From Gammaproteobacteria bacterium (GTDB lineage: Bacteria; Pseudomonadota; Gammaproteobacteria; GCA-002705445; GCA-002716945): a DNA stretch of 64,000 bases. Positions 34,827 through 53,144 of this stretch are shown piece after piece. Within the stretch, counting starts at the first letter, position 1; each line of letters opens with the position of its first letter. The stretch spans positions 30,932 to 94,931 of the forward strand of contig CBFIBF010000001.1 in assembly GCA_965660795.1 (NCBI GenBank), in the 5' to 3' direction. The position numbers were made by a program, and so were the translations under genes. The notes under the pieces were generated by a model. The model was given only the letters and a program-made list of their open reading frames with translations. It ran no database searches and had not been told where the DNA came from.

Positions 34827-35123
34827 ATGGTTTATCATACAATAAATGAGAACTTTATGAAAAAAATATCGGATTTCATACCAAAGAAAGTAATTGATAA
34901 AAAAGAGAATATAGAAAGTTTAAATCTAATTCTTAATGATTCAATCGAAACCAACTTAAAGAATAAAATACGTGTGATCAACTACAGCGAAACATGCATA
35001 ACAATAGAGTGTGATGATACCTCAATTGCCAGTATCATGCGATTTGAAAAGGACAAATACTTGGATATATTTAACGAGAATGATTTAAGTAATATTAAAG
35101 AACTTAAAGTAAGAGTCAGATAG
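34827..35123 (+). CDS. DUF721 / DciA-like small protein
   Basis: 98 aa with an [31 protein letters not shown] pattern resembling DUF721. It lies between lpxC and secA on the opposite strand, which is where Pseudomonas-type genomes carry a DUF721 gene. Confidence 0.45.
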
Positions 35124-36024: not shown

Positions 36025-36088
36025 AAGATGATTCTACCAAAGTGTTATAATTGTTACAAATATATTAATATTAGACAATAAACAGGAA

Positions 36089-38910: not shown

Positions 38911-39743
38911 TTTATTAAAATCACCTCTTCTTTTAAATTAACATTATGTGTTAAGGAAACTATGTGTTTTACATAATCAAGAAGGTTTAGAAAATCCCAA
39001 TGAGTGCCTGTGCCGTCATTGATAAAATAATTTGAATGTTTCTTTGAGACATATATTCCACCTATCCTTTTACCTTTCAAGTTGGCAGATTCAATCAGTT
39101 CAGATGCGAAATCATGAGTAGGATTTTTAAAAATACATCCACATGATAATTGATTTACAGGCTGAGTAGCTTTTCTTTTGTAATCAAGATTATTAATCAT
39201 AGAGCTATCGAATTTAATTTTGGGATTATGTAACTTGATAGAAATAATAACCGCTTTGGGATCAATGCCTGAGTTCCTGTATGTATATTGAATATCTTTT
39301 TTAAATAGTGTTTGCAATCTTCCGTCTTTATCTAATAAATCAATACTATGAATATTATTTAATATTTCTTTTTCAAAAGCACCTGCATTCATAAAAACTG
39401 CTCCTCCTAAGGTTCCGGGAATACCATAGAGAAATTCATAACCTGATATTTGATGATTATATAAATATCTCGCTAGTTTAGTACAAGATATATTACTAGA
39501 ACATGAAATATACTCTTCATCATGAGAAAGATACTTGCTCATTTTTTTTAAACTCAAAATGATACCGTCATAATAATCTGTCACAAAACATACATTAGAC
39601 CCATTACCAATGCTTAGAACACTGTTATTATGAAGTATATTAGTCAGCTCTTCAGTATTCTCAGGACAACAGAATTCACGACAAGTACCCCCAAGACCTA
39701 TGGTGCTTATCTTTTTTAAAGGATAATTTTTATATGTCTGCAT
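38907..39743 (-). CDS. murB: UDP-N-acetylenolpyruvoylglucosamine reductase
   Basis: 278 aa with an FAD-binding domain and MurB C-terminal motifs (SCGCIFKNP). Confidence 0.88.
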   Translation of the reverse strand: MQTYKNYPLKKISTIGLGGTCREFCCPENTEELTNILHNNSVLSIGNGSNVCFVTDYYDGIILSLKKMSKYLSHDEEYISCSSNISCTKLARYLYNHQISGYEFLYGIPGTLGGAVFMNAGAFEKEILNNIHSIDLLDKDGRLQTLFKKDIQYTYRNSGIDPKAVIISIKLHNPKIKFDSSMINNLDYKRKATQPVNQLSCGCIFKNPTHDFASELIESANLKGKRIGGIYVSKKHSNYFINDGTGTHWDFLNLLDYVKHIVSLTHNVNLKEEVILIK

Positions 39744-41121
39744 TTGCTTTTATTAAATAAAGAATTTCTCTTATATCACCTGCTCCCTGAAGTACAACAA
39801 CACAATTTTCAAGATTTAATTTTTTTAACTCAGGAATTATGTTTTTTATAGATTTAACATAAACCTTATTTCTATTTCTGATTTTCTTAAACAAATATTC
39901 TGAATCATATGAGTTATTCTTTTCTCCTGCTGAATACGTTGGTAACAATAGCACTACATCTAATGATGACAATATTTCTGAGAATAACTTCCAGTGAAGT
40001 TTTGTTCTAGAGTATCTATGAGGTTGAAACACCATAACTATTTTTCTTTTAGGATATATTTCCTTAATTGTTTTAATTGTTGACTGAATTTCAGTTGGAT
40101 GATGTCCATAATCATCTATTATCGTAGGTTTAGAGTTTTTAATATTTAAATTATCATAAATATCGAATCTTCTGCTAGCTCCATAAAATGTCTTGAGGGA
40201 TTTCAGAGCTTTACGTGTATCTATACCTAGATGTATAGCTACTGAAACTGCAGCAAGAATATTATAAATGTTGTGCTTACCAAAAAGATTGGTTTGAACT
40301 GGGTAAACATGATTATCATAATGAACATCAAACATCATATATGTATTTGTGTACATAATTGACTTAGCTCTCAAGTCATTATTTTTAGTAAATCCATAAC
40401 TAAATATCTCTCTGTTTATATGTTTGAATAATTTGTTTGAGTTTTTATCATCACCATTCAAGAATACTTTTCCATAAAAAGGAATAGAGTTTATGTGTTT
40501 TAGAACAGATCTCTCCAGGTTTGTATAATTATTGTTATAGTTTTCTAAATGTTCTTTATCTAAATTAGTTAGCACAACAAGATGAGGTTGTAGTAATGAA
40601 AAAGTTGGATCACTTTCATCGGTCTCTGTCACTAGATAATGACTTTTCCCCAGATTAACATGAGGGTCATCTGTTTTAAGTTTACCTCCAATTAGATATG
40701 TTGGATCAAGATTATTTGAATACATAATATGACTTAACAAGCTTGTTGTAGTTGTTTTGCCATGAGAGCCAGTAATGGATATTCCATACTTTAATCTCAT
40801 TAGTTCAGCAAGTATCTCCATTCTAGCTAGAACAGTCAGGCCGGACTTAATAGAGTACTTTAGCTCGACATTGTTCTTACTAATTGCATTCGAATGTACA
40901 ACAATGTCATTAGTTTTAATATTTTTTGGATCATGCCCGATAAATATTTTGATTTTTCTCTCACGTAATCTAGTAATTGCAGTATTGATTTTAATATCGG
41001 AGCCTCTGACAGAAAAACCCATATTATGAAGTAACTCAGCAATACCCATCATACCTGCGCCTCCAATACCAATCAGAAAAAATGATTTATTTTTAAGATG
41101 TTGCGTTATTGAGTTTTTCAT
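39730..41121 (-). CDS. murC: UDP-N-acetylmuramate--L-alanine ligase
   Basis: 463 aa Mur ligase with an N-terminal GIGGAGMMGIAELL and the Mur ligase middle and C-terminal domains. Confidence 0.92.
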   Translation of the reverse strand: MKNSITQHLKNKSFFLIGIGGAGMMGIAELLHNMGFSVRGSDIKINTAITRLRERKIKIFIGHDPKNIKTNDIVVHSNAISKNNVELKYSIKSGLTVLARMEILAELMRLKYGISITGSHGKTTTTSLLSHIMYSNNLDPTYLIGGKLKTDDPHVNLGKSHYLVTETDESDPTFSLLQPHLVVLTNLDKEHLENYNNNYTNLERSVLKHINSIPFYGKVFLNGDDKNSNKLFKHINREIFSYGFTKNNDLRAKSIMYTNTYMMFDVHYDNHVYPVQTNLFGKHNIYNILAAVSVAIHLGIDTRKALKSLKTFYGASRRFDIYDNLNIKNSKPTIIDDYGHHPTEIQSTIKTIKEIYPKRKIVMVFQPHRYSRTKLHWKLFSEILSSLDVVLLLPTYSAGEKNNSYDSEYLFKKIRNRNKVYVKSIKNIIPELKKLNLENCVVVLQGAGDIREILYLIKANADI

Positions 41122-42184
41122 CTAGTTCAGGAATATTTTTTATGATTATATCACCTGAATCATTAGGAAAAAGATTTTTGGCATTTATTGCGATTTTTAA
41201 TAGATTCTTCTGGTTAGAGTATAGATGCTTTAGTGAGGATTTAAGGTTTTTCGAAAAATTTTTATTTTCTTCAATAAGGATAGCTGCACTCTTCTCAACT
41301 AAGTATTTGGCATTATGATATTGATGGTTATCTGTTGCATACAAAAAAGGGACAAGAATAGATGCTCTTCCAGAGTGTGATATCTCAGTTACAGTCATTG
41401 ATCCAGACCTAGATATCACAATATCTGCCCAATTGTACATCTCATCCATCTGATTTGAAAACTCAATAACCTCCGCCGATAGATTATTTTTTTTGTATCT
41501 ATTCTTAACTATTTCCAAGTTATTAGCACCTGATATATGCTTTACAGAAAACAAATCTTTATCATCAGATAAGCAGAATGGAATTACTTCATTAAAAAAT
41601 TTAGATCCTTGACTGCCACCAAAAATGAGTATATTAATCTTATTTTTTTTCATCGCATACTTAAGCTCAGGTTTTTCGATATTATCAAAACTGCTTTTAA
41701 TAGGATTTCCTGAGAGAATTATTTTGTTACTTGATGGAAACGTTTTAGGGAAGGTTTGAAATGTATTTCTGGATATTTTGTTATTTAGTTTATTTGCGGT
41801 GCCTGCTATTGAATTTGATTCATGAACATAAACTGGTACTCTCATCACAAAACCAGCAAAAGATACTGGCACACTAATATAGCCACCAAATCCAAGAATA
41901 AAAAGAGGCTTCTCCTTGTGAAGGATGACTAGGCTTTGAAAAAATGATTGAACAAGATTAAATAAACCTCTCATAGTATCAATGATGTTTTTACCTCTTA
42001 TGCCTGATGACTTAATATGCTTTATAGTTATATCTTTTCTTTTTACTATCTTATTTTCAATTCCATTCTTAGTGCCAATCCATATAATTTGCAGCTTATG
42101 ATTCAATAATTTTTCTGATACGTTAATTGCAGGAACCACATGTCCACCTGTACCACTAGCAACAATTAATATACTTTTTTTCAT
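41093..42184 (-). CDS. murG: UDP-N-acetylglucosamine--N-acetylmuramyl-(pentapeptide) pyrophosphoryl-undecaprenol GlcNAc transferase
   Basis: 363 aa GT28 glycosyltransferase with an N-terminal GGTGGHVVPA. Confidence 0.92.
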   Translation of the reverse strand: MKKSILIVASGTGGHVVPAINVSEKLLNHKLQIIWIGTKNGIENKIVKRKDITIKHIKSSGIRGKNIIDTMRGLFNLVQSFFQSLVILHKEKPLFILGFGGYISVPVSFAGFVMRVPVYVHESNSIAGTANKLNNKISRNTFQTFPKTFPSSNKIILSGNPIKSSFDNIEKPELKYAMKKNKINILIFGGSQGSKFFNEVIPFCLSDDKDLFSVKHISGANNLEIVKNRYKKNNLSAEVIEFSNQMDEMYNWADIVISRSGSMTVTEISHSGRASILVPFLYATDNHQYHNAKYLVEKSAAILIEENKNFSKNLKSSLKHLYSNQKNLLKIAINAKNLFPNDSGDIIIKNIPELDEKLNNATS

Positions 42185-42186
42185 TT

Positions 42187-43335
42187 TTAGTTATTCTGAA
42201 CAGCTTGACTAATGTTCTGTTTATTTTCTATTTGAATTCTTATCAAGATTCCAATATATGTAAACATAAGAAGTAAATTCGTACCTCCATAACTTATAAA
42301 TGGTAACCCCATACCTTTGGTAGGAAATAATCCTATATTTACTAAAACATGAATTGTAGTTTGCATAATAATTAAAAGAAAAATAGATAAAATAATATTT
42401 GATGAAAATTGAGATATATTCAACGTTCTTTTATAGAAAGTAAATATTCTTGTAAACAAAATAACATACAAGACTAATAACATTAATAAGAAACTGAAGC
42501 CTAATTCTTCTCCAATTATAGCGAGTATAAAGTCATTATACTGCTCTGGAAGATAAAATAATTTTTGCATACTAGACCCTAGCCCCTGTCCAAAGAGTCC
42601 TCCTGAAGATAGCGCAATTTGAGAGGCAATTATTTGATAGCCACCCCCTTGAGGGTCACTCCATGGATCTATAAATGCAAGTAATCTTTGAATTCTATAA
42701 GGATATAAAAAAATTAATAAAAAAATAGGTATAGCAGTGAAAGCAAGTAATTTGAAAAGGTGGGATATTTTTAAGTTGCTGAGAAAAGCAAACACTATAA
42801 ATGACATAAATAACAATATCATACTGCCGAAATCCCTTTGGGAAACAATTACCATCATTAAAATAGTTAAAAAAATGAATATTTTAAGAGAGTTTTTATT
42901 AAAATCATTTCTAACAATGAAACCAGACAACCAAATAAAAAAGAATAGTCTTGAGATTTCTGATATCTGTAATGTAAATATTCCAAGATTTATCCATCTT
43001 GTTGCGCCATTTACTGTTAAACCGATGCCTGGTATGTGAACTAATAAAGATAGAAAGATTGATAGTAACAGAAAGAACTGTCCATAATCGTAATATAGTT
43101 TCATTTTGATTCTTGATACAAAATACAAGACTATTAAGCCCAACATTATAAAAATTAAATGTTTATTAAAAAAGAAAAGTGGATTAGAAAATTTTCTTGC
43201 TGCAAAATCTGCTGTGGATGAGGTTATCATCACCAAACCAATTAGAAGAAGACTTGTAATACATATTAAAAAGATATTGTCTAGCCCTCTACTGTCAAAG
43301 AAGTCGAAAGTATTTTTTATTTTATTGATTAGCAT
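42187..43335 (-). CDS. ftsW: Peptidoglycan glycosyltransferase FtsW (SEDS family)
   Basis: 382 aa polytopic SEDS protein in the canonical dcw position. Confidence 0.9.
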   Translation of the reverse strand: MLINKIKNTFDFFDSRGLDNIFLICITSLLLIGLVMITSSTADFAARKFSNPLFFFNKHLIFIMLGLIVLYFVSRIKMKLYYDYGQFFLLLSIFLSLLVHIPGIGLTVNGATRWINLGIFTLQISEISRLFFFIWLSGFIVRNDFNKNSLKIFIFLTILMMVIVSQRDFGSMILLFMSFIVFAFLSNLKISHLFKLLAFTAIPIFLLIFLYPYRIQRLLAFIDPWSDPQGGGYQIIASQIALSSGGLFGQGLGSSMQKLFYLPEQYNDFILAIIGEELGFSFLLMLLVLYVILFTRIFTFYKRTLNISQFSSNIILSIFLLIIMQTTIHVLVNIGLFPTKGMGLPFISYGGTNLLLMFTYIGILIRIQIENKQNISQAVQNN

Positions 43336-44599
43336 GTTTCTTAACTAATGATTTAAAATGCTCGCCTCTTTCCATGTAGTCAGAGTAATGATAAAAACTA
43401 GATGTTCCAGGTGACATGAGTACAGTATCACCTGAAACTACATCTGATAAAATATAATATATTGCATCCTCTAGATTTTCTATATAAGACTTTTTAACCT
43501 TTACATCTAAGTCATTAATTAAAGTTTTATTCTCACCAATAATCACAAGAGATTTTACTTTTTCATTAATGATATCTATTAAACTCTCATATGATATTTT
43601 CTTATCATCCCCACCCATAATTAAAATAATATTTTCTTTCACTGAATTAAGAGCATTCAATGTAGAATCTGCGTTTGTAGATTTTGAATCATTGATGAAT
43701 TTTACTCCTTTATATGTACAAATTTCTTCAACTCTATGTTGTAAAAAATTACGCCTTGAAAAGGATTCGATAATTTTAGTTATAGAAAAATTTAGCTTTT
43801 TTAATATTGGTATACACGCACATAAATTTAATGCTTCATGCCTGCCAGTAATAGCATATTTTTCATCTTCAAAAACTATCATATTATCTTCATTGATAAA
43901 TAGATTATCTAATGCAGTATTATCTATTAAAAATTTATTTTTTTTAATTTCAAATGTCTGGCAATGATAATATTTTTTTAGCTTGCTATTTATAATCTGA
44001 AATTTTGAATTATTAAAAATTCTCAATTTCAAATTTATATAATTAGTTAAAGATTTATGCCTATCAATATGATCCATTGATATGTTTAGAACTATAGAAA
44101 TAAATGATTTTAATTTATTTATATACTCTAGCTGGTAACTTGATATCTCAAGAATGACATATTCATATGATTTTTCTAGAGAGTCAAACACTGATACCCC
44201 ATTATTGCCACATGCTATAGCGCTTATATCATTGTCATTCAAAATATCAGCTAACAAGTTTACAGTAGAGGTTTTACCATTAGTTCCAGTAACACATATA
44301 AATTTCGATGATGATAGTTTTTGAAGAATCTCTATGTCAGTAATTATTTTTGACTTTATAGTAAATAGACGTCTAACAATCGGATTTGAAGAGGAAATTC
44401 CTGGACTTATTACAATATAGTCAATATTTTTTAAATTAATTTCACCATGCTTTAAAATAATAATATTTTCTTTTATTTCTAAAATATCCTCTGTTACTAA
44501 TGAGGAATAAGTTACATCATTTTTTTTAAAAAATTCACTGCAATGTCTAAATGTTGTTCCTTTTCCTAATATTAAAAAAGAGGATTGAAAAATATTCAT
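43322..44599 (-). CDS. murD: UDP-N-acetylmuramoylalanine--D-glutamate ligase
   Basis: 425 aa Mur ligase with VTGTNGKTST. Confidence 0.9.
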   Translation of the reverse strand: MNIFQSSFLILGKGTTFRHCSEFFKKNDVTYSSLVTEDILEIKENIIILKHGEINLKNIDYIVISPGISSSNPIVRRLFTIKSKIITDIEILQKLSSSKFICVTGTNGKTSTVNLLADILNDNDISAIACGNNGVSVFDSLEKSYEYVILEISSYQLEYINKLKSFISIVLNISMDHIDRHKSLTNYINLKLRIFNNSKFQIINSKLKKYYHCQTFEIKKNKFLIDNTALDNLFINEDNMIVFEDEKYAITGRHEALNLCACIPILKKLNFSITKIIESFSRRNFLQHRVEEICTYKGVKFINDSKSTNADSTLNALNSVKENIILIMGGDDKKISYESLIDIINEKVKSLVIIGENKTLINDLDVKVKKSYIENLEDAIYYILSDVVSGDTVLMSPGTSSFYHYSDYMERGEHFKSLVKKHANQ

Positions 44600-45681
44600 C
44601 TAATCTTCAAAGTAGATAATGCGATGAGAACGAGAACGAATGTAATTATCCAAAATCTCATAATGATTTTAGGCTCTGACAAGCCTGAGAGCTCATAATG
44701 ATGATGAAGAGGAGCCATCTTAAAGATTCTTTTTCCATTTCGTAATTTATATGATGATACTTGAAGGATTACCGACAAAACTTCTGCAATAAAAATTCCG
44801 CTCATGATCGCAAATGCAAGTTCCTGTTTTAAGATAATAGCTAATAAGCCTAGAGAGCTGCCAAGTGATAAAGACCCACAATCGCCCATAAATATCTCGG
44901 CAGGATATGAATTAAACCAAAGGAAACCGAGACCAGCTCCGACTAATGAAGCTGAAAATATTGCTAATTCTCCAGAACCCTGAATATAAGGTATCAATAA
45001 ATATTCAGATATATTTACATTTCCATGAACATAAGAAAAAATAACAAACGCAGATGCGATTAGTATACAGGGTAAAATAGCAAGTCCGTCTAGGCCATCT
45101 GTCAGATTGACAGCATTTGATGAACCTACCAAAATAAATATAGACCAAGGTATAAATAAAATACCAAGTTGAAAGCTATTATCTTTTAAAAAAGGCATCA
45201 CAGAACTAATTTGACCAGTATCCATGTATATGAATAAGTAAATAGTAATCAGTGATGCAGAAATTATTTGAAATAAAAGTTTAAATCTTCCTTTAATGCC
45301 ATCGCTGTTTTTTTTTATTAGTTTCTTATAATCATCATAGAAGCCTATTAGTCCAAAACTTAAAATCCCAAATAGAAGTATAAGAACATATTGATTCCCT
45401 AAATCAGACCAAAGTATAGTCGAGATAACAACGCTAAATATTATTATAATACCTCCCATAGTAGGAGTTGTATTCTTATCACTGAGGTGACTTTGTGGGC
45501 CATCCTCTCTTATAGACTGATAAAATTGTTTACTTCTTAAAAAAGAAATAATATACGGACCAAGGATTAATGAGATGAGAAGTGATGTCAATGCACCCAT
45601 TACAATTCTGAGTGTCAGATATTGAAATACATTAAAACCTGAATTGAATTGAGATAGATATTCGAAAAAATTTAGAAGCAT
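44596..45681 (-). CDS. mraY: Phospho-N-acetylmuramoyl-pentapeptide transferase
   Basis: 361 aa polytopic protein with MraY motifs (NAVNLTDGLDGLA). Confidence 0.95.
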   Translation of the reverse strand: MLLNFFEYLSQFNSGFNVFQYLTLRIVMGALTSLLISLILGPYIISFLRSKQFYQSIREDGPQSHLSDKNTTPTMGGIIIIFSVVISTILWSDLGNQYVLILLFGILSFGLIGFYDDYKKLIKKNSDGIKGRFKLLFQIISASLITIYLFIYMDTGQISSVMPFLKDNSFQLGILFIPWSIFILVGSSNAVNLTDGLDGLAILPCILIASAFVIFSYVHGNVNISEYLLIPYIQGSGELAIFSASLVGAGLGFLWFNSYPAEIFMGDCGSLSLGSSLGLLAIILKQELAFAIMSGIFIAEVLSVILQVSSYKLRNGKRIFKMAPLHHHYELSGLSEPKIIMRFWIITFVLVLIALSTLKIR

Positions 45682-45684
45682 TGT

Positions 45685-47019
45685 CTATTTCAAACCTTCA
45701 GCTATTAAATCAAAACTCATAAATCTTGATGCTTTAATCAAAATTACACTATCACTATTAGATAACTGTTTTGCATGATTTATTAAATCACTCATATCAC
45801 TATAAGTATAACAGCGTTTTCCAAATATTGACTTAGCTTCAGATTTATAATTGCCCATGTATAGTAAATATTTTATACCTGAATCCTTTGCAAAACGAAA
45901 AATTTCTATATGATGCTCAAGAGCTGCATCACCTAGTTCTCCCATATCTCCCATAATAAATATTTTATCTTTATTAAAAATCTCAAGTTGCTTAATAGAC
46001 GATTTCATCGACATAGGATTCGCATTATAAGAATCATCAATTACAGTGGATTTATTTTTTGATATAAATTTGTAAAACCTACCTTTTACTCCTTTAAATG
46101 ATTGCAAGCCATTTTGAACATCCTTGATATTTGCTCCAGCTTCCATTGCTAATGAAACGCTAAACAACATATTGATAGGGAGATGGCCAGTAGTATATTT
46201 TTTATCAATACTGAAATCTCCTTTAACTGTAGTGAAATAAAAATCCGTCTCATTATTATATTTGATCATATAGTCCGCATTCTCTTTAGCTGAAATTGTG
46301 GTAATTTTTTTATCATTATTGAGTCTAGCCCACTTAGAATAATATAAGTCATCTTTATTTAAGATTACTTGATTGGTTCTTGGATGAGAAAAAATTTCCT
46401 CTTTTGTAGAAATAAGATTTTCTATATTTCCAAAAGATTGCATATGAGCTTCAGAAACATTTAATAATGTCGTCATATCAGGCTCGCATATATTAACTAG
46501 TTGAGAAATATCATTTTTTTTACTTGCTCCTAACTCATAAACACATTTATCAGTTTCGTTATTAAATGCCTTAAAAATTGATAATGGCAATCCAATATCA
46601 TTATTAAAATTTCCAATGGTAGTGCTAACATTGAATGATTGTTTTAATATTTCGGCAGTAAGCTTTGTTACTGATGTTTTTCCATTTGTGCCAGTAACTC
46701 CAATTGTAAATGGTTGCCCCATAGTTTTTTTTAGGTTGCATGCAATTACACCCAATGCGTCAATAGTATCATCACAAATAATATGAGGTATGTTGCGGCA
46801 CTCTTTTATTGCTGATTTATTGCAAACAATTGCTGATGCGCCATTTTTTATTGATTCATCTATAAAATCATGCCCGTCAAAATTATCTCCCTTAATAGCA
46901 ATGAATAGATCACCTTTTTTAACATCTCTGCTATCAATACTAATGTTATTAATAAAAGCATCTTCTCCATATAAACTTGAAGATAGAAATTTTGATATAT
47001 TTGTCAATTTAACTTCCAT
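45685..47019 (-). CDS. murF: UDP-N-acetylmuramoyl-tripeptide--D-alanyl-D-alanine ligase
   Basis: 444 aa Mur ligase (GVTGTNGKTSVT). Confidence 0.9.
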   Translation of the reverse strand: MEVKLTNISKFLSSSLYGEDAFINNISIDSRDVKKGDLFIAIKGDNFDGHDFIDESIKNGASAIVCNKSAIKECRNIPHIICDDTIDALGVIACNLKKTMGQPFTIGVTGTNGKTSVTKLTAEILKQSFNVSTTIGNFNNDIGLPLSIFKAFNNETDKCVYELGASKKNDISQLVNICEPDMTTLLNVSEAHMQSFGNIENLISTKEEIFSHPRTNQVILNKDDLYYSKWARLNNDKKITTISAKENADYMIKYNNETDFYFTTVKGDFSIDKKYTTGHLPINMLFSVSLAMEAGANIKDVQNGLQSFKGVKGRFYKFISKNKSTVIDDSYNANPMSMKSSIKQLEIFNKDKIFIMGDMGELGDAALEHHIEIFRFAKDSGIKYLLYMGNYKSEAKSIFGKRCYTYSDMSDLINHAKQLSNSDSVILIKASRFMSFDLIAEGLK

Positions 47020-48430
47020 TCTTACTTATTAGACCCTCTAAATAATCAATATCATTATGCTTTATTTTTCTGTTATTTTTTAGAATAAAGTTTTCATTAC
47101 CTTTACCTAGTATGAAATTTAATTCATTTTTGGTTGAGGTTTCAAAAAGATATTTTATTGCTTTTTTCCTGTTTTCAATAACCCTGACTTTATTTTTATG
47201 TACGATGCCAGAAATAATATCTTTTTTGATAACAGAAAATTTTTCGGTTCTAGAGTTATCTTCTGTCATTATTATTTCTGATGAGAATTTATCAACAATC
47301 TTTGCAGTTAACTTTCTTTTAGAAGTATCTCTGTCACCGCCACATCCAAATAAAGTACGAACTTTTTTATTTTTACAAAAATCATAAAATATATTTTTAT
47401 AAGCTTGTTCAGTATGTGCATAATCTATTAAAAATATACCATTATGTTTTGTAGATATAATATGTCTTCTACCTTTTAATGGTTTCAATCTGGATATAGA
47501 TTCTAATATTTCATCAATATTGAATTTCTCTAGCTTCATTAACGCGATTATTAATTTTATCGAATACTTATTGAAAGGATTCATTTTTGTTTTATGAAAT
47601 GATCCTAAGATATCTGTGTCTATAAAATTTTTTTTGTTTATTTTATTTTTTGAGATGTAATACTTTTGTTTACATTTATATTGGGAATTATCAATTTTTT
47701 TTAAATTTATACAATCATGATTCAATACTACTTTTATGCTCTGATTAATTATATTTAACTTTGAATGAATGTAATTCCTAAGAGTTTTATGATAATCAAT
47801 ATGGTCTTTTTCAATATTTGTTATTACTGAATAATCAAAATTTATACCATCTAACCTCCCTTGATGTAATCCTTGTGATGAACACTCAATGATAATGTAA
47901 TCGCATTTCTTCAGTGAAAAATTAATTATATTTTTATAAATTATATCAATTGGTGGTGTTGTATAATTATTTTGTAAAGTATTAGGGTATATGCCGATAC
48001 CCTCACTTGAAATTAATCCTACTTTTTTATTCTGTATTGTTAGTGAATCTGCAAGTAGTAATGACGTAGAAGTCTTTCCATTAGTTCCAGTAACTCCAAT
48101 AAGGCAAGGTAATTGCTTAATCTTCAATAAATCATATTTAAATAACTTACTATATGTACTGAAGATATCTTTTGATACCAAATAAGGAACCGATTTATTA
48201 AGAGTTTTGCGTGAGTAAATAAATGGAGTAATAAATCCGCTTGCGCCTTTTTCTATAGCATCTTTTATATTAGAAAAATTTTTTTTGGTGTTTTTCTCAA
48301 GTGATATAAATACTTGATTCTCTCTTAAATACTTAGAATTAATACAAAATCTATTTGATAAATACTTGTCATACCTTGTATTGCATAAGATAAATTTTTT
48401 ATATTGTTTTAATTTATCTTGAGCCTGCAT
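47009..48430 (-). CDS. murE: UDP-N-acetylmuramoyl-L-alanyl-D-glutamate--2,6-diaminopimelate ligase
   Basis: 473 aa Mur ligase (GVTGTNGKTST, GCGGDRD). Confidence 0.9.
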   Translation of the reverse strand: MQAQDKLKQYKKFILCNTRYDKYLSNRFCINSKYLRENQVFISLEKNTKKNFSNIKDAIEKGASGFITPFIYSRKTLNKSVPYLVSKDIFSTYSKLFKYDLLKIKQLPCLIGVTGTNGKTSTSLLLADSLTIQNKKVGLISSEGIGIYPNTLQNNYTTPPIDIIYKNIINFSLKKCDYIIIECSSQGLHQGRLDGINFDYSVITNIEKDHIDYHKTLRNYIHSKLNIINQSIKVVLNHDCINLKKIDNSQYKCKQKYYISKNKINKKNFIDTDILGSFHKTKMNPFNKYSIKLIIALMKLEKFNIDEILESISRLKPLKGRRHIISTKHNGIFLIDYAHTEQAYKNIFYDFCKNKKVRTLFGCGGDRDTSKRKLTAKIVDKFSSEIIMTEDNSRTEKFSVIKKDIISGIVHKNKVRVIENRKKAIKYLFETSTKNELNFILGKGNENFILKNNRKIKHNDIDYLEGLISKNGS

Positions 48431-50135
48431 ATTCTATATTGCTATCAATTCTCATGATATGTTGCATGAATTCACCAAAAACTGGCGCAGCATGATAACC
48501 GCCTGAGCCTTGTCTATCTTTTGGTTCTCTTATAATTACAGCTGCAACATATTTAGGTATAGGATCTCCGACGATGCCAACAAATAATGCATTGTGATTA
48601 TTGGTATTATATTTTCCATTTTTTAGTAGTCTTACTGTACCTGTTTTACCATATGTCGTATATCCATTAACTTTAGCTTTTTTTCCTGTTCCATCATCTG
48701 AGTGAACTACTTGCTTCATCATATTAAGAACGATTGATGTTTTCTTGCTATCTAACAACTGATGATCCTTCTCAAAGTGTAATTCGTTACTATTGATATA
48801 CTTTAATTGAGTATAATGCCCCTCATTAGCCAATATTGTATACGCGTTCACTAAATGCATTAATGATACAGATATACCATACCCATAACCAATACTGTGA
48901 TGTTCTGATTCGGATATTTCATTAGTTGTTGGTAACTTTCCATTTCTAGATCCTGGAAGGTCTATATATAGTGAATGTCCAAATCCAAATTTCTCAAGAT
49001 TACTGATTAGTTGTTTCTTTGATAGCATTGTTGATACTCTAGCCGCACCAATGTTGCTCGAGTACTTAATGATATCACCTGATGAAACTTTCCCTAAAAA
49101 TTTCCAATCCTTAATTTCTTTATCATCAAGCTTTATGATTCCTGGGGCAGTATCAATGATCGTATCATGATTAATCAGACTATGATGAAGTCCAGCATAA
49201 ATTATAAAGGGTTTTATGGTTGATCCTGGCTCTATCAAATCATGAATAATTCTGTTCTTGATTTTTTCACCTGAATAACTTGTTCTTGTTTCTGGATCAA
49301 AAGAAGGATAATTTGCCATTGACAAAATATTACCAGTAGCTGTCTCAACAAGAACAATAGATGCGCTGTCTGCCTCAAACTTCTTTACATATTTCTTCAA
49401 AACATCATATGCAATAATTTGTATTTGCTTATCAAGCGTAAGTGTTACGTCTAATCCAGCCTTAGATTTCTTTATGATTTCTAGCGTTTCAATTGCTCGA
49501 CCGATATTATCTTTTTTTATTTTTTTAATTCCATCTGAAGGTTTTAAGACTTTGTTTTTGGCAAGCTCAATTCCTTCTTGTCCTACATCATCAACATTAG
49601 TAAATCCTAAAACATTAGAAAATGCTTCACCTCCTAAATAAGACCTTTTACTCTCATTGATGAAATAAATATAAGAATTTTTATATTTTTCAATCTTTGT
49701 AAACTCTAATTTTGAAATATGTCTTTTTAAATAATATTCCTTTTTATCTTTATTTCTATATATTGCTTTGCTGATTTTCTGGTAAGGAATATCAATAATT
49801 TCTGAAATTTTTTTTAAATCATCTTTATATTCTGATGTATAAAGCTTGCTTGGATTAATACATAAAGTTTTTGAGGGCAATGACATTGCTAATATATTTT
49901 TATTTCTATCAAATATAATTCCGCGCTGCTCTTTAGTTATTATATTTTGTATCTGTCTTTTTTTCCCCTCATTGATTATATTTTGCTTGCAGGTACTTTC
50001 ATTGAAATAAAAGCAATCCGTGCCTTTGATTTGGATGAAATATAATCTAATAATAATTATTAGAAGTGTAATGGAGGCTATTATTACGAATAATAATAGT
50101 CTCCATTTTTCATTTTTTACTTTACTATCAATCAG
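48414..50135 (-). CDS. ftsI: Peptidoglycan D,D-transpeptidase FtsI (PBP3). The true start is unresolved: the track ORF starts at the first ATG (49886), but the transmembrane N-terminus lies upstream.
   Basis: The 490-aa track ORF has PBP dimerisation and transpeptidase motifs (STIKP, SSN, KTGT). The same frame stays open upstream to 50144 and encodes ...KWRLLLFVIIASITLLIIIIRLYFIQIKGTD...QRGIIFDRNKNILAMSLP. That is the canonical FtsI cytoplasmic, transmembrane and pre-PBP segment, but it has no in-frame ATG, GTG or TTG. Candidate starts are CTG at 50135 or ATT at 50132. Alternatively ATG at 50113 is one base out of frame at an A-run. Confidence 0.75.
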   Translation of the reverse strand: MIDSKVKNEKWRLLLFVIIASITLLIIIIRLYFIQIKGTDCFYFNESTCKQNIINEGKKRQIQNIITKEQRGIIFDRNKNILAMSLPSKTLCINPSKLYTSEYKDDLKKISEIIDIPYQKISKAIYRNKDKKEYYLKRHISKLEFTKIEKYKNSYIYFINESKRSYLGGEAFSNVLGFTNVDDVGQEGIELAKNKVLKPSDGIKKIKKDNIGRAIETLEIIKKSKAGLDVTLTLDKQIQIIAYDVLKKYVKKFEADSASIVLVETATGNILSMANYPSFDPETRTSYSGEKIKNRIIHDLIEPGSTIKPFIIYAGLHHSLINHDTIIDTAPGIIKLDDKEIKDWKFLGKVSSGDIIKYSSNIGAARVSTMLSKKQLISNLEKFGFGHSLYIDLPGSRNGKLPTTNEISESEHHSIGYGYGISVSLMHLVNAYTILANEGHYTQLKYINSNELHFEKDHQLLDSKKTSIVLNMMKQVVHSDDGTGKKAKVNGYTTYGKTGTVRLLKNGKYNTNNHNALFVGIVGDPIPKYVAAVIIREPKDRQGSGGYHAAPVFGEFMQHIMRIDSNIEYAGSR

Positions 50136-51261
50136 CTTGTTGTCTTAGAAATGCTGGTATGTCTATTGAAGTTTGATCTTCTTGTCCAGATAGATCTACA
50201 TGCTCAATATTATTATTGGAGTTTTGAAAGCTTTTAACACTGTTCATGTTTTCTTTAGGTTGTTCTTCTAAAGAAGGTTCAGTAGTTACAACATCTGCTA
50301 CATTGTTTTGTACAAAACCTGTTGCAATTATAGTAACTCTCAAGTCTCCTATATTATCATCTTCTTTAATACAGCCGGTGATAATCTTTGCGTCTTCATG
50401 TGCAATTTCTCTGATTTTATTTCCAATAACTTCAAATTCATCTGTAGTCAAATCTGAACCAGATGTAATGTTAACAAGAACGCCGCTTGCGCCTTTAAGG
50501 CTTATATTATCAAGTAAAGGGCTGCTAAGTGCTGTAGTAACAGCTTCCTCAGCTCTATTTTCACCAGATGAAACACCAGAGCCCATCATTGCCTTGCCCA
50601 TTCCTGACATTACGGTTTTAACATCTGCAAAATCAACATTCATAAAACCTCTAATAGTTATAATTTCTGTTATCCCTTTGACAGCACCTCTTAGCACGTC
50701 ATTAGCGTTTTCAAATGATGAAAATATGGATTCTCCTCCGCCATATACCTCTTTAAGTTTTGAATTTGGTATTACAATGAGTGAATCCACCCATTGTTCT
50801 AGATTATCTATGCCTTCTTGTGCATTTGCCATTCTCTCTGGACCCTCAAAATCGAATGGTTTTGTCACTACAGCAACTGTCAGTATACCTAAATCCCTAG
50901 CAATCTGGGCAATAACTGGTGCTGCGCCTGTGCCTGTTCCACCACCCATACCAGCGGCTATGAAAAGCATATCTGCTCCTTCAATTGACTCTTTTAGAGT
51001 TTCGCTTGCTTCAAGTGCTGCTTGTCTGCCTTTTTCAGGATCTGCGCCAGCTCCTAATCCTTTAGTTATTTCAGAGCCTATCTGAACCGTGACTGCGCCG
51101 TCTATATCCCTTAGGGCTTGTACATCAGTATTTGCAATTAAAAAATCTGCCCCATGAATTTGAGACTTAAGCATCGACATAATAGCGTTACCACCGCCAC
51201 CGCCTACACCAATAACTTTGATAACCGCATTTTGATTATAATTATTTACTATTTCAAACAT
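50128..51261 (-). CDS. ftsZ: Cell division GTPase FtsZ
   Basis: 377 aa with the GGGTGTG tubulin signature and the conserved C-terminal peptide DIPAFLRQQAD. Confidence 0.97.
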   Translation of the reverse strand: MFEIVNNYNQNAVIKVIGVGGGGGNAIMSMLKSQIHGADFLIANTDVQALRDIDGAVTVQIGSEITKGLGAGADPEKGRQAALEASETLKESIEGADMLFIAAGMGGGTGTGAAPVIAQIARDLGILTVAVVTKPFDFEGPERMANAQEGIDNLEQWVDSLIVIPNSKLKEVYGGGESIFSSFENANDVLRGAVKGITEIITIRGFMNVDFADVKTVMSGMGKAMMGSGVSSGENRAEEAVTTALSSPLLDNISLKGASGVLVNITSGSDLTTDEFEVIGNKIREIAHEDAKIITGCIKEDDNIGDLRVTIIATGFVQNNVADVVTTEPSLEEQPKENMNSVKSFQNSNNNIEHVDLSGQEDQTSIDIPAFLRQQAD

Positions 51262-51270
51262 GGTGTCCTC

Positions 51271-51540
51271 CTATTGATCCATATTCATGATTAAAATTCT
51301 TTCTTTATTTGGCAGCTGCATATTAAGAGCCTTACCTAGACTATTTTTCTGTAAAACTTTATCTGTAATGTCAGCTTTATCTTTTAGCAACTGTCGATAT
51401 GATTCAGATAAATAATAATGTTTCTTTTCGTTTTCAGATATTTCAATGTTCAAGATTCTATTTTGATATTTTATAAAAATCACTCCAAAAGCTGAAATGG
51501 TTATAAGTAAAATTAAAACAAAAGAAGCTGTCAAATTCAT
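51271..51540 (-). CDS. ftsL: Cell division protein FtsL
   Basis: 89 aa with a single transmembrane helix plus coiled coil, sited between rsmH and the downstream division genes. Confidence 0.75.
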   Translation of the reverse strand: MNLTASFVLILLITISAFGVIFIKYQNRILNIEISENEKKHYYLSESYRQLLKDKADITDKVLQKNSLGKALNMQLPNKERILIMNMDQ

Positions 51541-52469
51541 ATTGATTTCTCCAATACATTTATTTTTGCTGATCTTGATCTTATATTTTCTATGACTTCA
51601 CTTTGAGATGGTTTAATTTTTTTTATTAAGTTAAATAACTTTTTAAGAAATTCATTTTTTATAGGTATTTTTCTAGGTGTAGATAAATTATGATCGGTCA
51701 ATATCATAAAATCTTTTATAACTCGTTCTTCTAGTGAATGATAAGTTATAAGAACTAATCTACCTTTAGGAGCTAGTATGCTGTATGATTTTTCTAAGAT
51801 ACTTTTGAGAACATCTAGTTCCTTATTGACAAAGATTCTCAAAGCTTGAAAAGATCTGGTTGCATTATGTTTATTCTTATCATTAACTAAAACAGATTTG
51901 TTGATTATATTCACTAGCTCGAGAGTACTATTAATTGGGCTCAATGCTCTATGTTTGATTATGTTTTTAGCAATTCTTTTTGAGAATTTTTCCTGCCCAT
52001 ATACTCTTAAGATGCTCTCAATATCTTTTTCTGGTAACTCATTTATATATTCTGAGGCTTTTTTGCCATAATTTTGATTGAATCTCATATCTAAAGGCGC
52101 ATCTTTATTGAAACTAAACCCTCTGTCTGCATCATCTAAGTGGACAGAAGAAACACCAAGATCGAACAAAATACCGTTAACTGATCCATATACATTCCAT
52201 GTCCTAGCATATTCATCAAGAGAAGAGAAACATCCATGTTTTAGGGTAAACCTATTCTCTTGCGCAAATTGTTTTTTATTATAATCAATAGCATCCTTGT
52301 CTTTATCAACCGCAAAAATCTTTGCGTCCTGATTAGTATTCTCTAATATTGAAATTGAGTGGCCGCCATATCCAAGAGTAGCATCTATATATACTCCACT
52401 CTTATCGGTTATCAGATGCTTAATTGCTTCATTCTTCATTACTGGTATATGGAACTGAGTATTATTCAT
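51537..52469 (-). CDS. rsmH: 16S rRNA (cytosine1402-N4)-methyltransferase RsmH (MraW)
   Basis: 310 aa with a SAM motif (YIDATLGYGGHS) and conserved RsmH regions. Confidence 0.93.
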   Translation of the reverse strand: MNNTQFHIPVMKNEAIKHLITDKSGVYIDATLGYGGHSISILENTNQDAKIFAVDKDKDAIDYNKKQFAQENRFTLKHGCFSSLDEYARTWNVYGSVNGILFDLGVSSVHLDDADRGFSFNKDAPLDMRFNQNYGKKASEYINELPEKDIESILRVYGQEKFSKRIAKNIIKHRALSPINSTLELVNIINKSVLVNDKNKHNATRSFQALRIFVNKELDVLKSILEKSYSILAPKGRLVLITYHSLEERVIKDFMILTDHNLSTPRKIPIKNEFLKKLFNLIKKIKPSQSEVIENIRSRSAKINVLEKSI

Positions 52470-52656
52470 TTTCTTTAAAGCTTCTTATATGTTCATATGC
52501 AGATTTGATTCTTATAAATATTTTGATAGATTGGGAATCGTTCTTATTTTTGTCTGGATGATATTTTGACGCTAGTCTTCTGTAAGCTGCTTTTATTACA
52601 GACATGTCATCACTAGCATTTACTCCCAATATTCTATAGTCGTTATTAGTTATCAT
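52462..52656 (-). CDS. Stand-alone J-domain protein (DnaJ-like, 64 aa)
   Basis: DYRILGVNASDDMSVIKAAYRRLASKYHPDKNKND...IKSAYEHI is a complete J domain with the HPD motif. Its start overlaps the mraZ stop (ATGA) and its stop overlaps the rsmH start by 8 nt. Confidence 0.65.
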   Translation of the reverse strand: MITNNDYRILGVNASDDMSVIKAAYRRLASKYHPDKNKNDSQSIKIFIRIKSAYEHIRSFKENE

Positions 52657-53144
52657 ATACTTATGTCATTTAAAGCTTCTACATCATCCGTAGAGGTTGC
52701 CTCTTCACGCCATTTCTCAACATTGCGATCCCAAGAATTCTGATCCCAAATTTCAAATTTTTCACCTTGACCAATCAATATGACTTTTTTTGATAATGAT
52801 GCGTATTGTCTTAGTGGTTTTGAGATTAGAATTCTACCACTTGAATCAACATCAACGTCTTCTGCATGGCCAATTAAGAGTCTTTGAATTCTTCTAGCAT
52901 TTCTATTAAAGCTCGGTAAGTTACTGATTTTATCCTGAATCTTAGACCAAATTGTTGTTGGATATAAAAGTAGACATTTATCCTCAGTATCAATAGTTAT
53001 CACCATTGAGCCTTTTAAAAGGTTTGTAATATGTTCTCGATAGGAAATAGGAATACCTAGCCTGCCTTTTGAATCAAGGCTAAGATTGTGAATACCTTTG
53101 AATAGATTCTCCATTTTTCTCCACAAAATAACAAATAATGCCAT
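52653..53144 (-). CDS. mraZ: Transcriptional regulator MraZ
   Basis: 163 aa with duplicated MraZ/SpoVT-AbrB-like halves (GIHNLSLDSKGRLGIP / HAEDVDVDSSGRILI). First gene of the dcw cluster. Confidence 0.93.
   Translation of the reverse strand: MALFVILWRKMENLFKGIHNLSLDSKGRLGIPISYREHITNLLKGSMVITIDTEDKCLLLYPTTIWSKIQDKISNLPSFNRNARRIQRLLIGHAEDVDVDSSGRILISKPLRQYASLSKKVILIGQGEKFEIWDQNSWDRNVEKWREEATSTDDVEALNDISI

What the first reader, a model, noticed from the sequence alone, without database searches (positions are those of the whole stretch)
48414..51540. dcw cluster rearrangement: ftsZ sits between ftsL and ftsI, and ftsA abuts lpxC
The observed minus-strand order is mraZ, J-domain gene, rsmH, ftsL, ftsZ, ftsI, murE, murF, mraY, murD, ftsW, murG, murC, murB, ddl, ftsQ, ftsA, lpxC. 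In essentially all proteobacteria ftsZ follows ftsA and precedes lpxC, and ftsA-ftsZ co-transcription and their ratio matter for division. Here ftsZ has the GGGTGTG signature and the C-terminal FtsA-binding peptide, so it is unambiguous, yet it lies ~14 kb upstream of ftsA with its 3' end overlapping the ftsI 5' region. That is an unusual break of one of the most conserved gene orders in bacteria.
Basis: seen in the sequence. Interest (0 to 1): 0.55.

Follow-up and report, generated by a model that had tools for sequence, protein, structure and literature searches.

The report
ftsZ relocated next to ftsI
In a whole order of uncultured, small-genome marine bacteria the key cell-division gene ftsZ has moved from its almost universal place after ftsA to the front of the division gene cluster, where it sits against an ftsI gene that has a conserved RNA hairpin and no normal start codon.

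Summary
On the minus strand the order is mraZ, J-domain gene, rsmH, ftsL, ftsZ (50128-51261), ftsI, murE ... ftsQ, ftsA, lpxC, with only 64 nt between ftsA and lpxC.

It is not a misassembly. The same ftsL-ftsZ-ftsI order occurs in all 14 related genome loci and all 12 metagenome places examined (FtsZ 66-99% identical). ftsA directly abuts lpxC in all 57 related metagenome loci that hold both genes. All 56 unrelated loci with dcw neighbours have ftsZ at the distal end.

The lineage appears to be GTDB order GCA-002705445, sister to SAR86, not SUP05/Thioglobus. The trait is therefore lineage-typical, and I found no paper describing it.

Two further features emerged:
- ftsZ carries an invariant strong ribosome-binding site and ATG.
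- ftsI has no ATG/GTG/TTG ahead of its membrane anchor in 19 of 21 lineages, yet those codons are under purifying selection. A stem-loop with compensatory changes sits in its first codons.

My inference, not shown, is that FtsI is made at low level by re-initiation at AUU/CUG at the ftsZ stop, with the hairpin attenuating or stabilising the transcript. This is a new variant of a known cluster, of moderate interest.

The parts
52653..53144 (-). mraZ, first gene of the cluster. The true start is probably the ATG at 53114. rnpB (RNase P RNA) lies just upstream at 53287-53613.
   Evidence: Pfam MraZ, 1e-33. Rfam RNaseP_bact_a, 264.7 bits. Relatives' callers give 150-163 aa.
52462..52656 (-). 64-aa stand-alone J-domain gene (HPD motif) between mraZ and rsmH.
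   Evidence: NCBIfam DnaJ-type hits covering the J-domain only. PF00226 gene of 65 aa at the same place in every relative.
51537..52469 (-). rsmH (mraW)
   Evidence: Pfam Methyltransf_5, 1.9e-97.
51271..51540 (-). ftsL
   Evidence: Pfam FtsL, 1.9e-08, above the cut-off.
51267..51272 (-). AGGAGG Shine-Dalgarno sequence of ftsZ. It overlaps the ftsL stop codon and lies 5 nt before the ATG.
   Evidence: Sequence. AGGAGG or GGAGG plus ATG is invariant in the window and 18 relatives.
50128..51261 (-). ftsZ, 377 aa, the only copy in the window, in a non-canonical position.
   Evidence: Pfam Tubulin 4.5e-47 and FtsZ_C 6.4e-30. 64% identical to E. coli-type FtsZ over the core. Single tblastn hit in the window.
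50130..50135 (-). CTG (50133-50135) and ATT (50130-50132) in the FtsI frame, overlapping the ftsZ stop TGA (50128-50130). Besides a weaker AAG at 50136-50138, these are the only near-cognate start codons upstream of the FtsI membrane anchor in this genome. They are the inferred ftsI start.
   Evidence: Codon table. No ATG, GTG or TTG between the upstream in-frame stop and the anchor.
48414..50132 (-). ftsI (PBP3), full-length reading frame of 572 aa if started at ATT 50132. The first canonical ATG is at 49886, and starting there would delete the membrane anchor and the conserved RGxIxDRN motif.
   Evidence: PDB FtsI chains align from residue ~51. The 72 codons before the first ATG have pN/pS of 0.04-0.30.
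50049..50105 (-). Codons for W-R followed by the 17-residue hydrophobic membrane anchor of FtsI (WRLLLFVIIASITLLIIII). From my own knowledge of the E. coli protein this resembles SWRFALLCGCILLALAFLLGR.
   Evidence: Translation. Conserved in 20 sequences.
50071..50106 (-). Conserved RNA stem-loop: 16-bp stem with one A.C mismatch and a UUCG loop, lying inside the first ftsI codions immediately after ftsZ.
   Evidence: RNAalifold recovers the core, with 8 of 11 pairs compensatory. 82% of cells are paired against 68% in shuffles, 0 of 500 shuffles reaching this, and 12 of 16 pairs have double changes. MFE is -16.4 kcal/mol, z = -7. On the + strand it scores as terminator-like.
37362..48430 (-). 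murE, murF, mraY, murD, ftsW, murG, murC, murB, ddl, ftsQ in canonical order.
   Evidence: NCBIfam equivalogs or subfamilies. POTRA_1 for ftsQ.
36089..37333 (-). ftsA, now the last division gene before lpxC.
   Evidence: Pfam FtsA and SHS2_FTSA.
36025..36088 (-). 64-nt ftsA-lpxC spacer, the ancestral ftsZ slot. It is too short to hold a remnant.
   Evidence: Sequence. No FtsZ tblastn hit there. The spacer is 64-131 nt (one of 209) in all 57 related loci that hold both genes.
35116..36024 (-). lpxC
   Evidence: Pfam LpxC, 9.1e-109.

Best explanation
[quoted passage not shown] In an uncultured marine gammaproteobacterial clade with small, AT-rich genomes, the ordinary single-copy ftsZ left its ancestral slot between ftsA and lpxC. 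It now lies promoter-proximal, between ftsL and ftsI. I assign the clade to GTDB order GCA-002705445 on the classification of one member. Those statements are shown.

The likely consequence for expression is inferred. ftsZ is translated efficiently from an invariant AGGAGG/GGAGG site plus AUG. The next gene, ftsI, has neither a Shine-Dalgarno sequence nor, in most lineages, a canonical start codon. It is probably translated at a few per cent of the ftsZ rate by ribosomes that finish ftsZ and re-initiate at the near-cognate AUU or CUG overlapping or adjoining the ftsZ stop.

A conserved stem-loop lies in the first ftsI codons, U-rich on its 3' side in about half the lineages. It probably acts as a partial terminator or 3'-end stabiliser for the mraZ-to-ftsZ part of the transcript, and also masks the ftsI initiation region. 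Together these would fix a high FtsZ to low FtsI (and downstream) ratio without the internal ftsQ/ftsA promoters used in E. coli.
For: Shown:
- Gene identities and order in the window.
- The same mraZ-J-rsmH-ftsL-ftsZ-ftsI-murE order in L001-L013 and L078, from independent MAGs and SAGs, and in metagenome contigs.
- ftsA runs directly into lpxC in all 57 related metagenome loci that hold both genes.
- ftsZ is distal in all 56 unrelated loci of the same scan that had dcw neighbours, and in L149, L150 and L159.
- The downstream flank lpxC-secA-argJ matches canonical L159.
- FtsZ is an ordinary gammaproteobacterial type, 64% identical to the E. coli core.
- ftsZ has an invariant SD and ATG.
- 19 of 21 junctions have no ATG/GTG/TTG between the upstream in-frame stop and the conserved (W)R plus anchor.
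- That region is nevertheless coding. It is gap-free over 72 codons with pN/pS of 0.04-0.30, has 0 stops in 21 of 21 sequences against 2 of 21 and 12 of 21 in the other frames, and aligns to solved FtsI structures from about 30 residues before the first ATG.
- The hairpin is found by RNAalifold, shows compensatory changes in 12 of 16 pairs with 0 of 500 shuffles as good, and has an MFE of -13 to -23 kcal/mol with z of -4 to -10 in all 20 sequences.
- The synonymous rate is lower in the hairpin part than in the rest in 12 of the 14 pairs compared.

From established knowledge, not tested here: FtsZ is needed in far higher copy number than FtsI, and near-cognate starts initiate at roughly 1% of AUG.
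Against: - No transcript or protein data exist, so the start codon of ftsI is not identified.
- CTG and ATT at the ftsZ stop are by-products of the conserved FtsZ C-terminal Ala-Asp-stop codons. Every lineage has at least one, but this is not significantly more than chance.
- Two lineages do have canonical starts: TTG in L010 and ATG directly before W-R in L157/L158. A weak start is therefore not obligatory.
- The U-tract after the hairpin is weak in the window itself (3 of 8 T), and T-rich codons are expected in a membrane-anchor segment anyway.
- The window and the deep subclade are assigned to this order by synteny and similarity to one classified member, not by direct classification.
- Whether the sister orders (SAR86, PIVX01) share the order could not be determined.
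Confidence: 0.7

Rival explanations
1. Assembly or binning artefact: ftsZ was joined into the 5' part of the cluster by a chimeric contig.
For: None found. The window on its own cannot exclude it.
Against: The same junctions occur in at least 20 distinct sequences from independent projects. These include SAGs (AG-894-P10, AG-461-I20, AG-390-N19), short-read MAGs, a pilon-polished 937-kb contig, and Tara and JGI metagenome contigs. The complementary ftsA-lpxC junction occurs in all 57 loci that hold both genes.
Confidence: 0.01
2. Xenologous replacement rather than translocation: a foreign ftsZ was inserted between ftsL and ftsI and the native copy after ftsA was then lost.
For: Sequence alone cannot separate a move from an insertion followed by a loss. 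Hairpins directly after ftsZ are common in canonical gammaproteobacteria, so a 'ftsZ plus hairpin' cassette could have been imported.
Against: FtsZ is a typical gammaproteobacterial orthologue: 64% identical to the E. coli core, 50-58% to other gammaproteobacterial representatives, with the DIPAFLRQQAD tail. No lineage with two copies or an intermediate state was seen among about 100 loci.
Confidence: 0.1
3. The hairpin is a full terminator, so mraZ-J-rsmH-ftsL-ftsZ is an operon of its own. ftsI and the downstream genes would be expressed from a separate promoter inside ftsZ, with ftsI initiated independently of ftsZ translation.
For: Terminator-like hairpin plus U-tract in L004, L006, L008, L009, L151 and L155. 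Mycoplasmas keep a short mraZ-mraW-ftsA-ftsZ operon.
Against: A terminator sitting inside the ftsI coding sequence would abort every ftsI transcript, whatever its promoter, so it can only be partial. The U-tract is weak in the window, L001, L007 and L011. ftsI has no SD and, in most lineages, no start codon for independent initiation. The promoter scan found fewer sites than in shuffles (26 against 34).
Confidence: 0.15
4. ftsI is decaying or N-terminally truncated, starting at the first ATG (49886) and lacking a membrane anchor.
For: This is what ORF finders and gene callers report: 490 aa here, and 487-549 aa with varying starts in relatives.
Against: The 72 codons upstream are gap-free, free of stops and under purifying selection in 20 sequences. 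They encode the W-R plus anchor and the RGxIxDRNxxxLA motif that aligns to solved FtsI structures. A PBP3 without an anchor could not reach the periplasm (established knowledge).
Confidence: 0.03
5. FtsZ and FtsI are joined in a fraction of products by frameshifting at the ftsZ stop, giving a membrane-anchored FtsZ-FtsI fusion. The topology would allow this.
For: The FtsI frame is open across the ftsZ stop in 20 of 21 junctions, and a stable hairpin follows about 25-31 nt downstream.
Against: - The frame relation is not conserved. L155 is in the other frame, with a TGA closing it 4 nt before the end of ftsZ.
- There is no conserved slippery sequence.
- ftsZ is followed by two or three in-frame stops in many lineages, for example TGA TAG TAA in the window.
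- tRNA-Asp cannot re-pair after a +1 shift on GAU-U or GAC-U.
Confidence: 0.02

Closest known systems
Canonical proteobacterial dcw cluster (E. coli mraZ-rsmH-ftsL-ftsI-murE-murF-mraY-murD-ftsW-murG-murC-ddlB-ftsQ-ftsA-ftsZ-lpxC)
   Same: Same gene set, same strand, tight packing, and the same order for 16 of the genes. rnpB lies upstream of mraZ and lpxC-secA downstream. FtsZ, FtsA and FtsI are orthodox proteins.
   Different: ftsZ lies between ftsL and ftsI instead of between ftsA and lpxC. ftsA-ftsZ adjacency and ftsL-ftsI adjacency are both broken. There is an extra J-domain gene after mraZ. ftsI has no canonical start, whereas E. coli ftsI starts with ATG 16 nt after ftsL.
Mycoplasma dcw operon (mraZ-mraW-ftsA-ftsZ; PMC12957436)
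   Same: ftsZ lies only a few genes downstream of mraZ and its promoter in a reduced genome. ftsZ is therefore presumably under direct control of the mraZ promoter.
   Different: In Mycoplasma this came about by deletion of the cell-wall genes, and ftsA still precedes ftsZ. Here all mur and fts genes are kept and ftsZ was moved ahead of them.
Intra-operon stem-loops and partial terminators that set differential expression (for example the internal terminator of E. coli rpsU-dnaG-rpoD, or 3' stabilising hairpins such as REP in malEFG). Recalled from own knowledge.
   Same: A stable hairpin immediately after a highly expressed cistron and before weakly expressed ones. It is conserved through compensatory changes, and a U-rich tail is present in many lineages.
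   Different: The hairpin lies inside the coding sequence of the next gene (its membrane-anchor codons), not in an intergenic spacer. Its function was not tested.
Translational coupling by termination and re-initiation at overlapping stop/start (ATGA or TAATG types), and non-AUG starts such as AUU of E. coli infC and pcnB. Recalled from own knowledge.
   Same: The downstream frame overlaps or abuts the upstream stop (AUUGA, AUUAA, CUGACUAA). There is no SD for the downstream gene.
   Different: The candidate start is only near-cognate, is dictated by the FtsZ C-terminal codons, and differs between lineages. Use of these codons has not been demonstrated.

Membership tests
dcw cluster, canonical proteobacterial order | Division and murein genes contiguous on one strand, beginning with mraZ-rsmH-ftsL | tested here: met
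   An extra J-domain gene sits between mraZ and rsmH.
dcw cluster, canonical proteobacterial order | ftsQ-ftsA-ftsZ(-lpxC) at the distal end | tested here: not met
   ftsA is followed by lpxC after 64 nt. The same holds in all 57 relatives that hold both genes. Controls are canonical.
dcw cluster, canonical proteobacterial order | ftsL immediately followed by ftsI | tested here: not met
   ftsZ is interposed.
FtsZ | Tubulin/FtsZ GTPase domain with the GGGTGTG signature, plus the FtsZ C-terminal domain | tested here: met
   PF00091 at 4.5e-47 and PF12327 at 6.4e-30. GGGTGTG is visible in the translation.
FtsZ | Conserved C-terminal peptide that binds FtsA/ZipA | tested here: met
   DIPAFLRQQAD at the C-terminus. 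It matches the tails of gammaproteobacterial homologues. Binding itself was not tested.
FtsI / PBP3 (class B PBP) | PBP dimerisation (pedestal) domain and transpeptidase domain | tested here: met
   PF03717 and PF00905. Best PDB matches are FtsI/PBP3, at 1e-74 to 1e-78.
FtsI / PBP3 (class B PBP) | N-terminal membrane anchor preceded by a short cytoplasmic tail | tested here: met
   Present only in the extended frame: W-R plus 17 hydrophobic residues plus R. Under purifying selection.
FtsI / PBP3 (class B PBP) | Ordinary gene start (ATG/GTG/TTG with an SD) upstream of the anchor | tested here: not met
   Absent in 19 of 21 junctions.
Rho-independent terminator | Stable G+C-containing stem-loop | tested here: met
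   -13 to -23 kcal/mol in all 20 sequences. Covariation.
Rho-independent terminator | U-tract directly after the stem on the transcribed strand | tested here: inconclusive
   At least 6 of 8 T in 8 of 20 sequences, but 3 of 8 in the window. The region encodes a hydrophobic helix, so T-richness is expected anyway.
Translationally coupled gene pair (termination and re-initiation) | Start codon of the downstream gene overlapping or within a few nt of the upstream stop | tested here: inconclusive
   Only the near-cognate CTG or ATT are at that place. Their use is not testable with these tools.

The most novel reading that the evidence does not exclude
In this order of abundant marine bacteria, synthesis of the septal transpeptidase FtsI depends on translation of ftsZ. 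ftsI would have no initiation signals of its own and would be made only when a ribosome finishing ftsZ re-initiates on a near-cognate AUU or CUG at the stop codon. A conserved hairpin inside the first ftsI codons would gate both transcript read-through and initiation. That would be a fixed-ratio FtsZ:FtsI device, a kind of divisome regulation not described for any model organism.
Probability: 0.3. Interest if true: 0.6.

Novelty: new variant of a known kind. Interest (0 to 1): 0.45.

Why it matters
The ftsA-ftsZ pair at the distal end of the dcw cluster is among the most conserved gene orders in bacteria. Models of division-gene regulation, including the internal ftsQAZ promoters and the FtsZ:FtsA ratio, are built on it. 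Here an entire order of free-living marine bacteria with small genomes has fixed a different design, with ftsZ placed four genes after the mraZ promoter and ahead of all the murein genes. This shows the canonical order is not obligatory.

It also provides a natural experiment on how FtsZ, FtsA and FtsI levels can be set with very few regulatory elements. The start-codon-less ftsI has a practical consequence as well. Gene callers truncate FtsI by about 20-85 residues in these genomes, which removes or cuts into the membrane anchor, so annotations of this essential gene in the clade are wrong.

Tried and rejected
1. Homopolymer error at the ftsI start. An A5 run at 50106-50110 read as A6 would give ATG AAA AAA TGG (MKKWR...). 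Rejected because the independent 99%-related genome L001 has the same A5, and all other lineages also lack a start, with unrelated sequences.

2. Start at the out-of-frame ATG/GTG/TTG formed by N+TGG at the foot of the hairpin, followed by a +1 shift. Rejected because the GGCTGC-type lineages have no such codon and a stop in that frame.

3. The hairpin as a dispersed repeat or mobile-element scar. Rejected because its arm matches only itself in the window.

4. Finding the order in SAR86, the sister order. This was not achieved.
- The two seeds taken from the representative search were a Methylococcales-type FtsZ (P0125) and a rare low-GC lineage with canonical order (P0258/P0390).
- P0415 turned out to be a 45% GC organism with canonical order.
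- The SAR86 isolate paper and its supplement do not mention ftsZ.

5. Taxon guesses of SAR86 or Thioglobus were replaced by the GTDB label found in a supplement. The 'Ectothiorhodospiraceae' names on two records look like placeholder mappings.

6. Promoter scan. There were fewer sigma-70-like sites than in shuffles, so no internal ftsZ promoter can be claimed.

7. Rfam. No known RNA family matches at the junction.


Full report
**1. What is in the window**

- dus, a methyltransferase and rnpB (Rfam RNaseP_bact_a) lie upstream.
- The cluster then runs mraZ (52653-53144), a 64-aa J-domain gene (52462-52656), rsmH (51537-52469), ftsL (51271-51540), ftsZ (50128-51261) and ftsI.
- It continues with murE, murF, mraY, murD, ftsW, murG, murC, murB, ddl, ftsQ, ftsA (36089-37333) and lpxC (35116-36024).

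ftsZ has the Tubulin and FtsZ_C domains, the GGGTGTG signature and the DIPAFLRQQAD tail. It is the only FtsZ-like sequence in the 64 kb. The ftsA-lpxC spacer is 64 nt, too short for any remnant.

**2. It is not an artefact, and it is not peculiar to this genome**

A scan of one genome per GTDB species with this FtsZ returned 80 loci.
- Fourteen of them (L001-L013 and L078) have FtsZ 66-99% identical and 27-32% GC. They come from independent MAG and single-cell projects.
- All fourteen show ftsZ directly followed by ftsI. The thirteen that extend upstream show dus, MT, mraZ, J, rsmH, ftsL and ftsZ before it. In L010 ftsL was too divergent for tblastn.
- The 56 other loci that have dcw neighbours all place ftsZ at the distal end, after ftsA or, where ftsA is absent or undetected, after the last murein or ftsQ gene. 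They include Thorsellia, Salinisphaera, Woeseiaceae and Neisseria. One Saccharibacteria locus (L042) has ftsZ before ftsA.
- Metagenome contigs carrying further FtsZ variants of the clade show the same order.
- A scan of 241 million metagenome records with FtsA gave 64 related loci. Every one of the 57 that contain both ftsA and lpxC has ftsA followed directly by lpxC. The gap is 64-131 nt, with one of 209 nt, and never contains ftsZ.

Both new junctions are thus fixed across a deep clade.

**3. Which clade**

One member, L006 (BS301-5m-G69), is classified in the supplement of the Black Sea MAG study as GTDB o__GCA-002705445; f__GCA-002716945. Its estimated genome size is 1.27 Mb and its GC content 31%. 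The order is described as a basal, uncultured gammaproteobacterial order with dissimilatory methylotrophy (PMC8371827). It is reported to share ancestry with SAR86 and PIVX01 (bioRxiv 10.1101/2024.03.17.584874).

Genes of the tetrahydromethanopterin and methanofuran type flank the cluster in the window (56-61 kb) and in the distant subclade, which fits that assignment. Assigning the window and the deep subclade to this order rests on synteny and similarity, not on direct classification.

**4. Origin of the arrangement**

- The FtsZ is an ordinary gammaproteobacterial orthologue. It is 64% identical to an E. coli-type FtsZ over the core and 50-58% identical to other gammaproteobacterial representatives.
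- The flanks of the vacated slot are intact. The window has ftsQ-ftsA-lpxC-secA-argJ. A canonical marine gammaproteobacterium (L159) has ftsQ-ftsA-ftsZ-lpxC-...-secA-argJ.
- A rare low-GC lineage whose FtsZ shares the EGPxRM motif has the canonical order (L149 and L150).
- No intermediate, such as two copies, was seen.

The simplest reading is a single translocation in the ancestor of the clade. Replacement by an imported gammaproteobacterial copy cannot be excluded without a phylogeny. I could not determine the order in SAR86 or PIVX01.

**5. The ftsL-ftsZ junction**

The ftsL stop overlaps an AGGAGG sequence lying 5 nt before the ftsZ ATG. AGGAGG or GGAGG plus ATG is invariant in the window and 18 relatives. 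ftsZ is therefore equipped for efficient, independent translation.

**6. The ftsZ-ftsI junction**

The ORF finder starts ftsI at 49886 (490 aa), and gene callers in relatives give 487-549 aa with varying starts. The FtsI frame is in fact open from 50144, inside the 3' end of ftsZ. It encodes W-R, a 17-residue hydrophobic anchor, R, and a conserved stretch (GTDCFxFN...CK.N...RGxIxDRNxxxLA) before the first ATG.

Several results show that this region is translated:
- It is gap-free over 72 codons in 20 sequences.
- Its pN/pS is 0.04-0.30.
- The short tail before it has no stop in 21 of 21 sequences, against 2 of 21 and 12 of 21 for the other frames.
- Solved FtsI structures align from about 30 residues upstream of the first ATG.

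Yet 19 of 21 distinct junctions contain no ATG, GTG or TTG between the upstream in-frame stop and the anchor.
- In the window the only near-cognate codons are AAG, CTG (50133-50135) and ATT (50130-50132). The ATT shares its last base with the ftsZ stop TGA.
- Every lineage has CTG and/or ATT at that place. In L155, where ftsI is in the other frame, ATT lies 2 nt after the stop.
- These codons follow from the conserved Ala-Asp-stop of FtsZ, so their presence is not by itself significant.
- The exceptions are a TTG in L010 and an ATG directly before W-R in L157/L158.
- A sequencing error is excluded, because L001 is an independent strain and has the same sequence.
- All other dcw genes in the window start with ATG next to the preceding gene.

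**7. A conserved stem-loop**

A hairpin lies directly after ftsZ, inside the W-R and anchor codons (window 50071-50106; 16 bp with one mismatch and a UUCG loop).
- RNAalifold recovers its core, with 8 of 11 pairs showing compensatory changes.
- On 20 sequences, 82% of cells pair against 68% in shuffles (0 of 500 reach this) and 33-57% when the partner columns are slid. Twelve of 16 pairs have double changes.
- The arms differ between subclades (ATGGAGAC..., GGCTGCTG..., ATGGCGACG...) but stay complementary.
- Every sequence folds to -13 to -23 kcal/mol, with z of -4 to -10.
- Synonymous divergence is lower in the hairpin part than in the following 54 codons in 12 of the 14 pairs compared, for example 0.07 against 0.37 and 0.13 against 0.58.
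- In 8 of the 20 sequences the stem is followed by at least 6 of 8 T (for example GGCC-TTTTTTGTTTTTTT in L006 and L008), which is terminator-like. In the window the tail is weak.
- The arm is not a dispersed repeat, and no Rfam family matches.
- Strong hairpins directly after ftsZ also occur in canonical gammaproteobacteria. The E. coli ftsI 5' region as a whole is not unusually structured (z = -1.4).

**8. How it probably works (inference)**

ftsZ is needed in large amounts, and FtsI and the Mur enzymes in small amounts (established knowledge). Placing ftsZ promoter-proximal with a strong SD, followed by a hairpin and a gene without initiation signals, would give that ratio from one transcript.
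- The hairpin would act as a partial terminator and/or a 3' protective structure for the mraZ-ftsZ segment, and would occlude the ftsI start region.
- ftsI would be initiated rarely, by ribosomes terminating on ftsZ and re-initiating on AUU or CUG.

This would replace the internal ftsQ/ftsA promoters that feed ftsZ in E. coli. It would also put ftsZ under the mraZ promoter, where a run of four (G/A/T)TG(T/G) boxes at 10-nt spacing lies just before mraZ. None of this is shown. The rival explanations are listed separately.

**9. Comparison and novelty**

The cluster is a dcw cluster in content, but it fails two defining adjacencies, ftsA-ftsZ and ftsL-ftsI. The nearest known case of ftsZ lying close to mraZ is the Mycoplasma four-gene operon. 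That arose by deletion and keeps ftsA before ftsZ (PMC12957436). Searches for SAR86+ftsZ, dcw gene order, vesicomyid symbionts, GCA-002705445 and dcw rearrangements found no description of this order. The survey of dcw evolution by Megrian et al. 2022 is not in the library and could not be checked.

I rate this a new variant of a known kind. It is of moderate interest to specialists in division-gene evolution. Interest would be higher if the ftsZ-ftsI coupling proves real.

Noticed in passing
window 52462-52656 (-): A 64-aa stand-alone J-domain protein (HPD motif) is encoded between mraZ and rsmH, overlapping both. A 65-aa PF00226 gene sits at the same place in every relative examined. As far as I know, a J-domain gene is not a usual dcw member.
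   Followed up: partly
L010, L013, L081-L084 and most of L093-L146 (for example L081 19171-21116): In the large, abundant subclade (FtsZ about 68% identical) murG is followed directly by murB. murC is missing from the cluster and is kept there only in a few lineages (L118, L119, L138, L140, L147) and in the window's subclade.
   Followed up: partly
window 53287-53613 (-) and 53117-53155 (-): RNase P RNA (rnpB) lies immediately upstream of mraZ. Between the first ATG of the listed mraZ ORF and the likelier start at 53114 there are four (G/A/T)TG(T/G) boxes spaced 10 nt apart, resembling MraZ operator repeats.
   Followed up: no
window 55444-61583: Genes of the tetrahydromethanopterin/methanofuran type (DUF6513 with pterin-binding domain, hydantoinase_A-like, chorismate-binding) flank the dcw cluster. 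In relatives the same block also holds 4HFCP synthase and DUF447. The block is syntenic across the clade and fits the reported methylotrophy of order GCA-002705445.
   Followed up: partly
window 50070-50107 (+): Read on the antisense strand, the junction hairpin is followed by TTTCATTTTT and scores as an intrinsic terminator. The A-rich Lys/Asn codons of the FtsI tail supply the U-tract. In L006 the A-tract and U-tract pair and extend the stem, as in bidirectional terminators.
   Followed up: partly
L157 3083-3200 and L158 1334-1450: One lineage (FtsZ 72% identical) has an ATG immediately before the W-R codons, at the foot of the hairpin. This gives an FtsI with almost no cytoplasmic tail, so the tail seen elsewhere may be dispensable.
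   Followed up: partly
L156 (E. coli K-12 NC_000913.3 91413-91545): E. coli ftsI has a small 7-bp hairpin (GCCAACU-UUAUC-AGUUGGC) ending at its own W-R codons, the same position as the clade's hairpin. This may be coincidence, or a much older feature of ftsI mRNAs.
   Followed up: no
window 50246-51085 (+): A 279-aa ORF antisense to ftsZ, rich in Ser and Pro. It is a shadow ORF of the Gly/Ala-rich ftsZ coding strand and not a gene.
   Followed up: no
L149 and L150: A rare 33.5% GC gammaproteobacterial lineage whose FtsZ shares the NTDVQ.L.DI.G and EGPxRM motifs with the clade keeps the canonical ftsQ-ftsA-ftsZ order. In L149 ftsZ is followed by a convergent purH-like gene instead of lpxC.
   Followed up: partly
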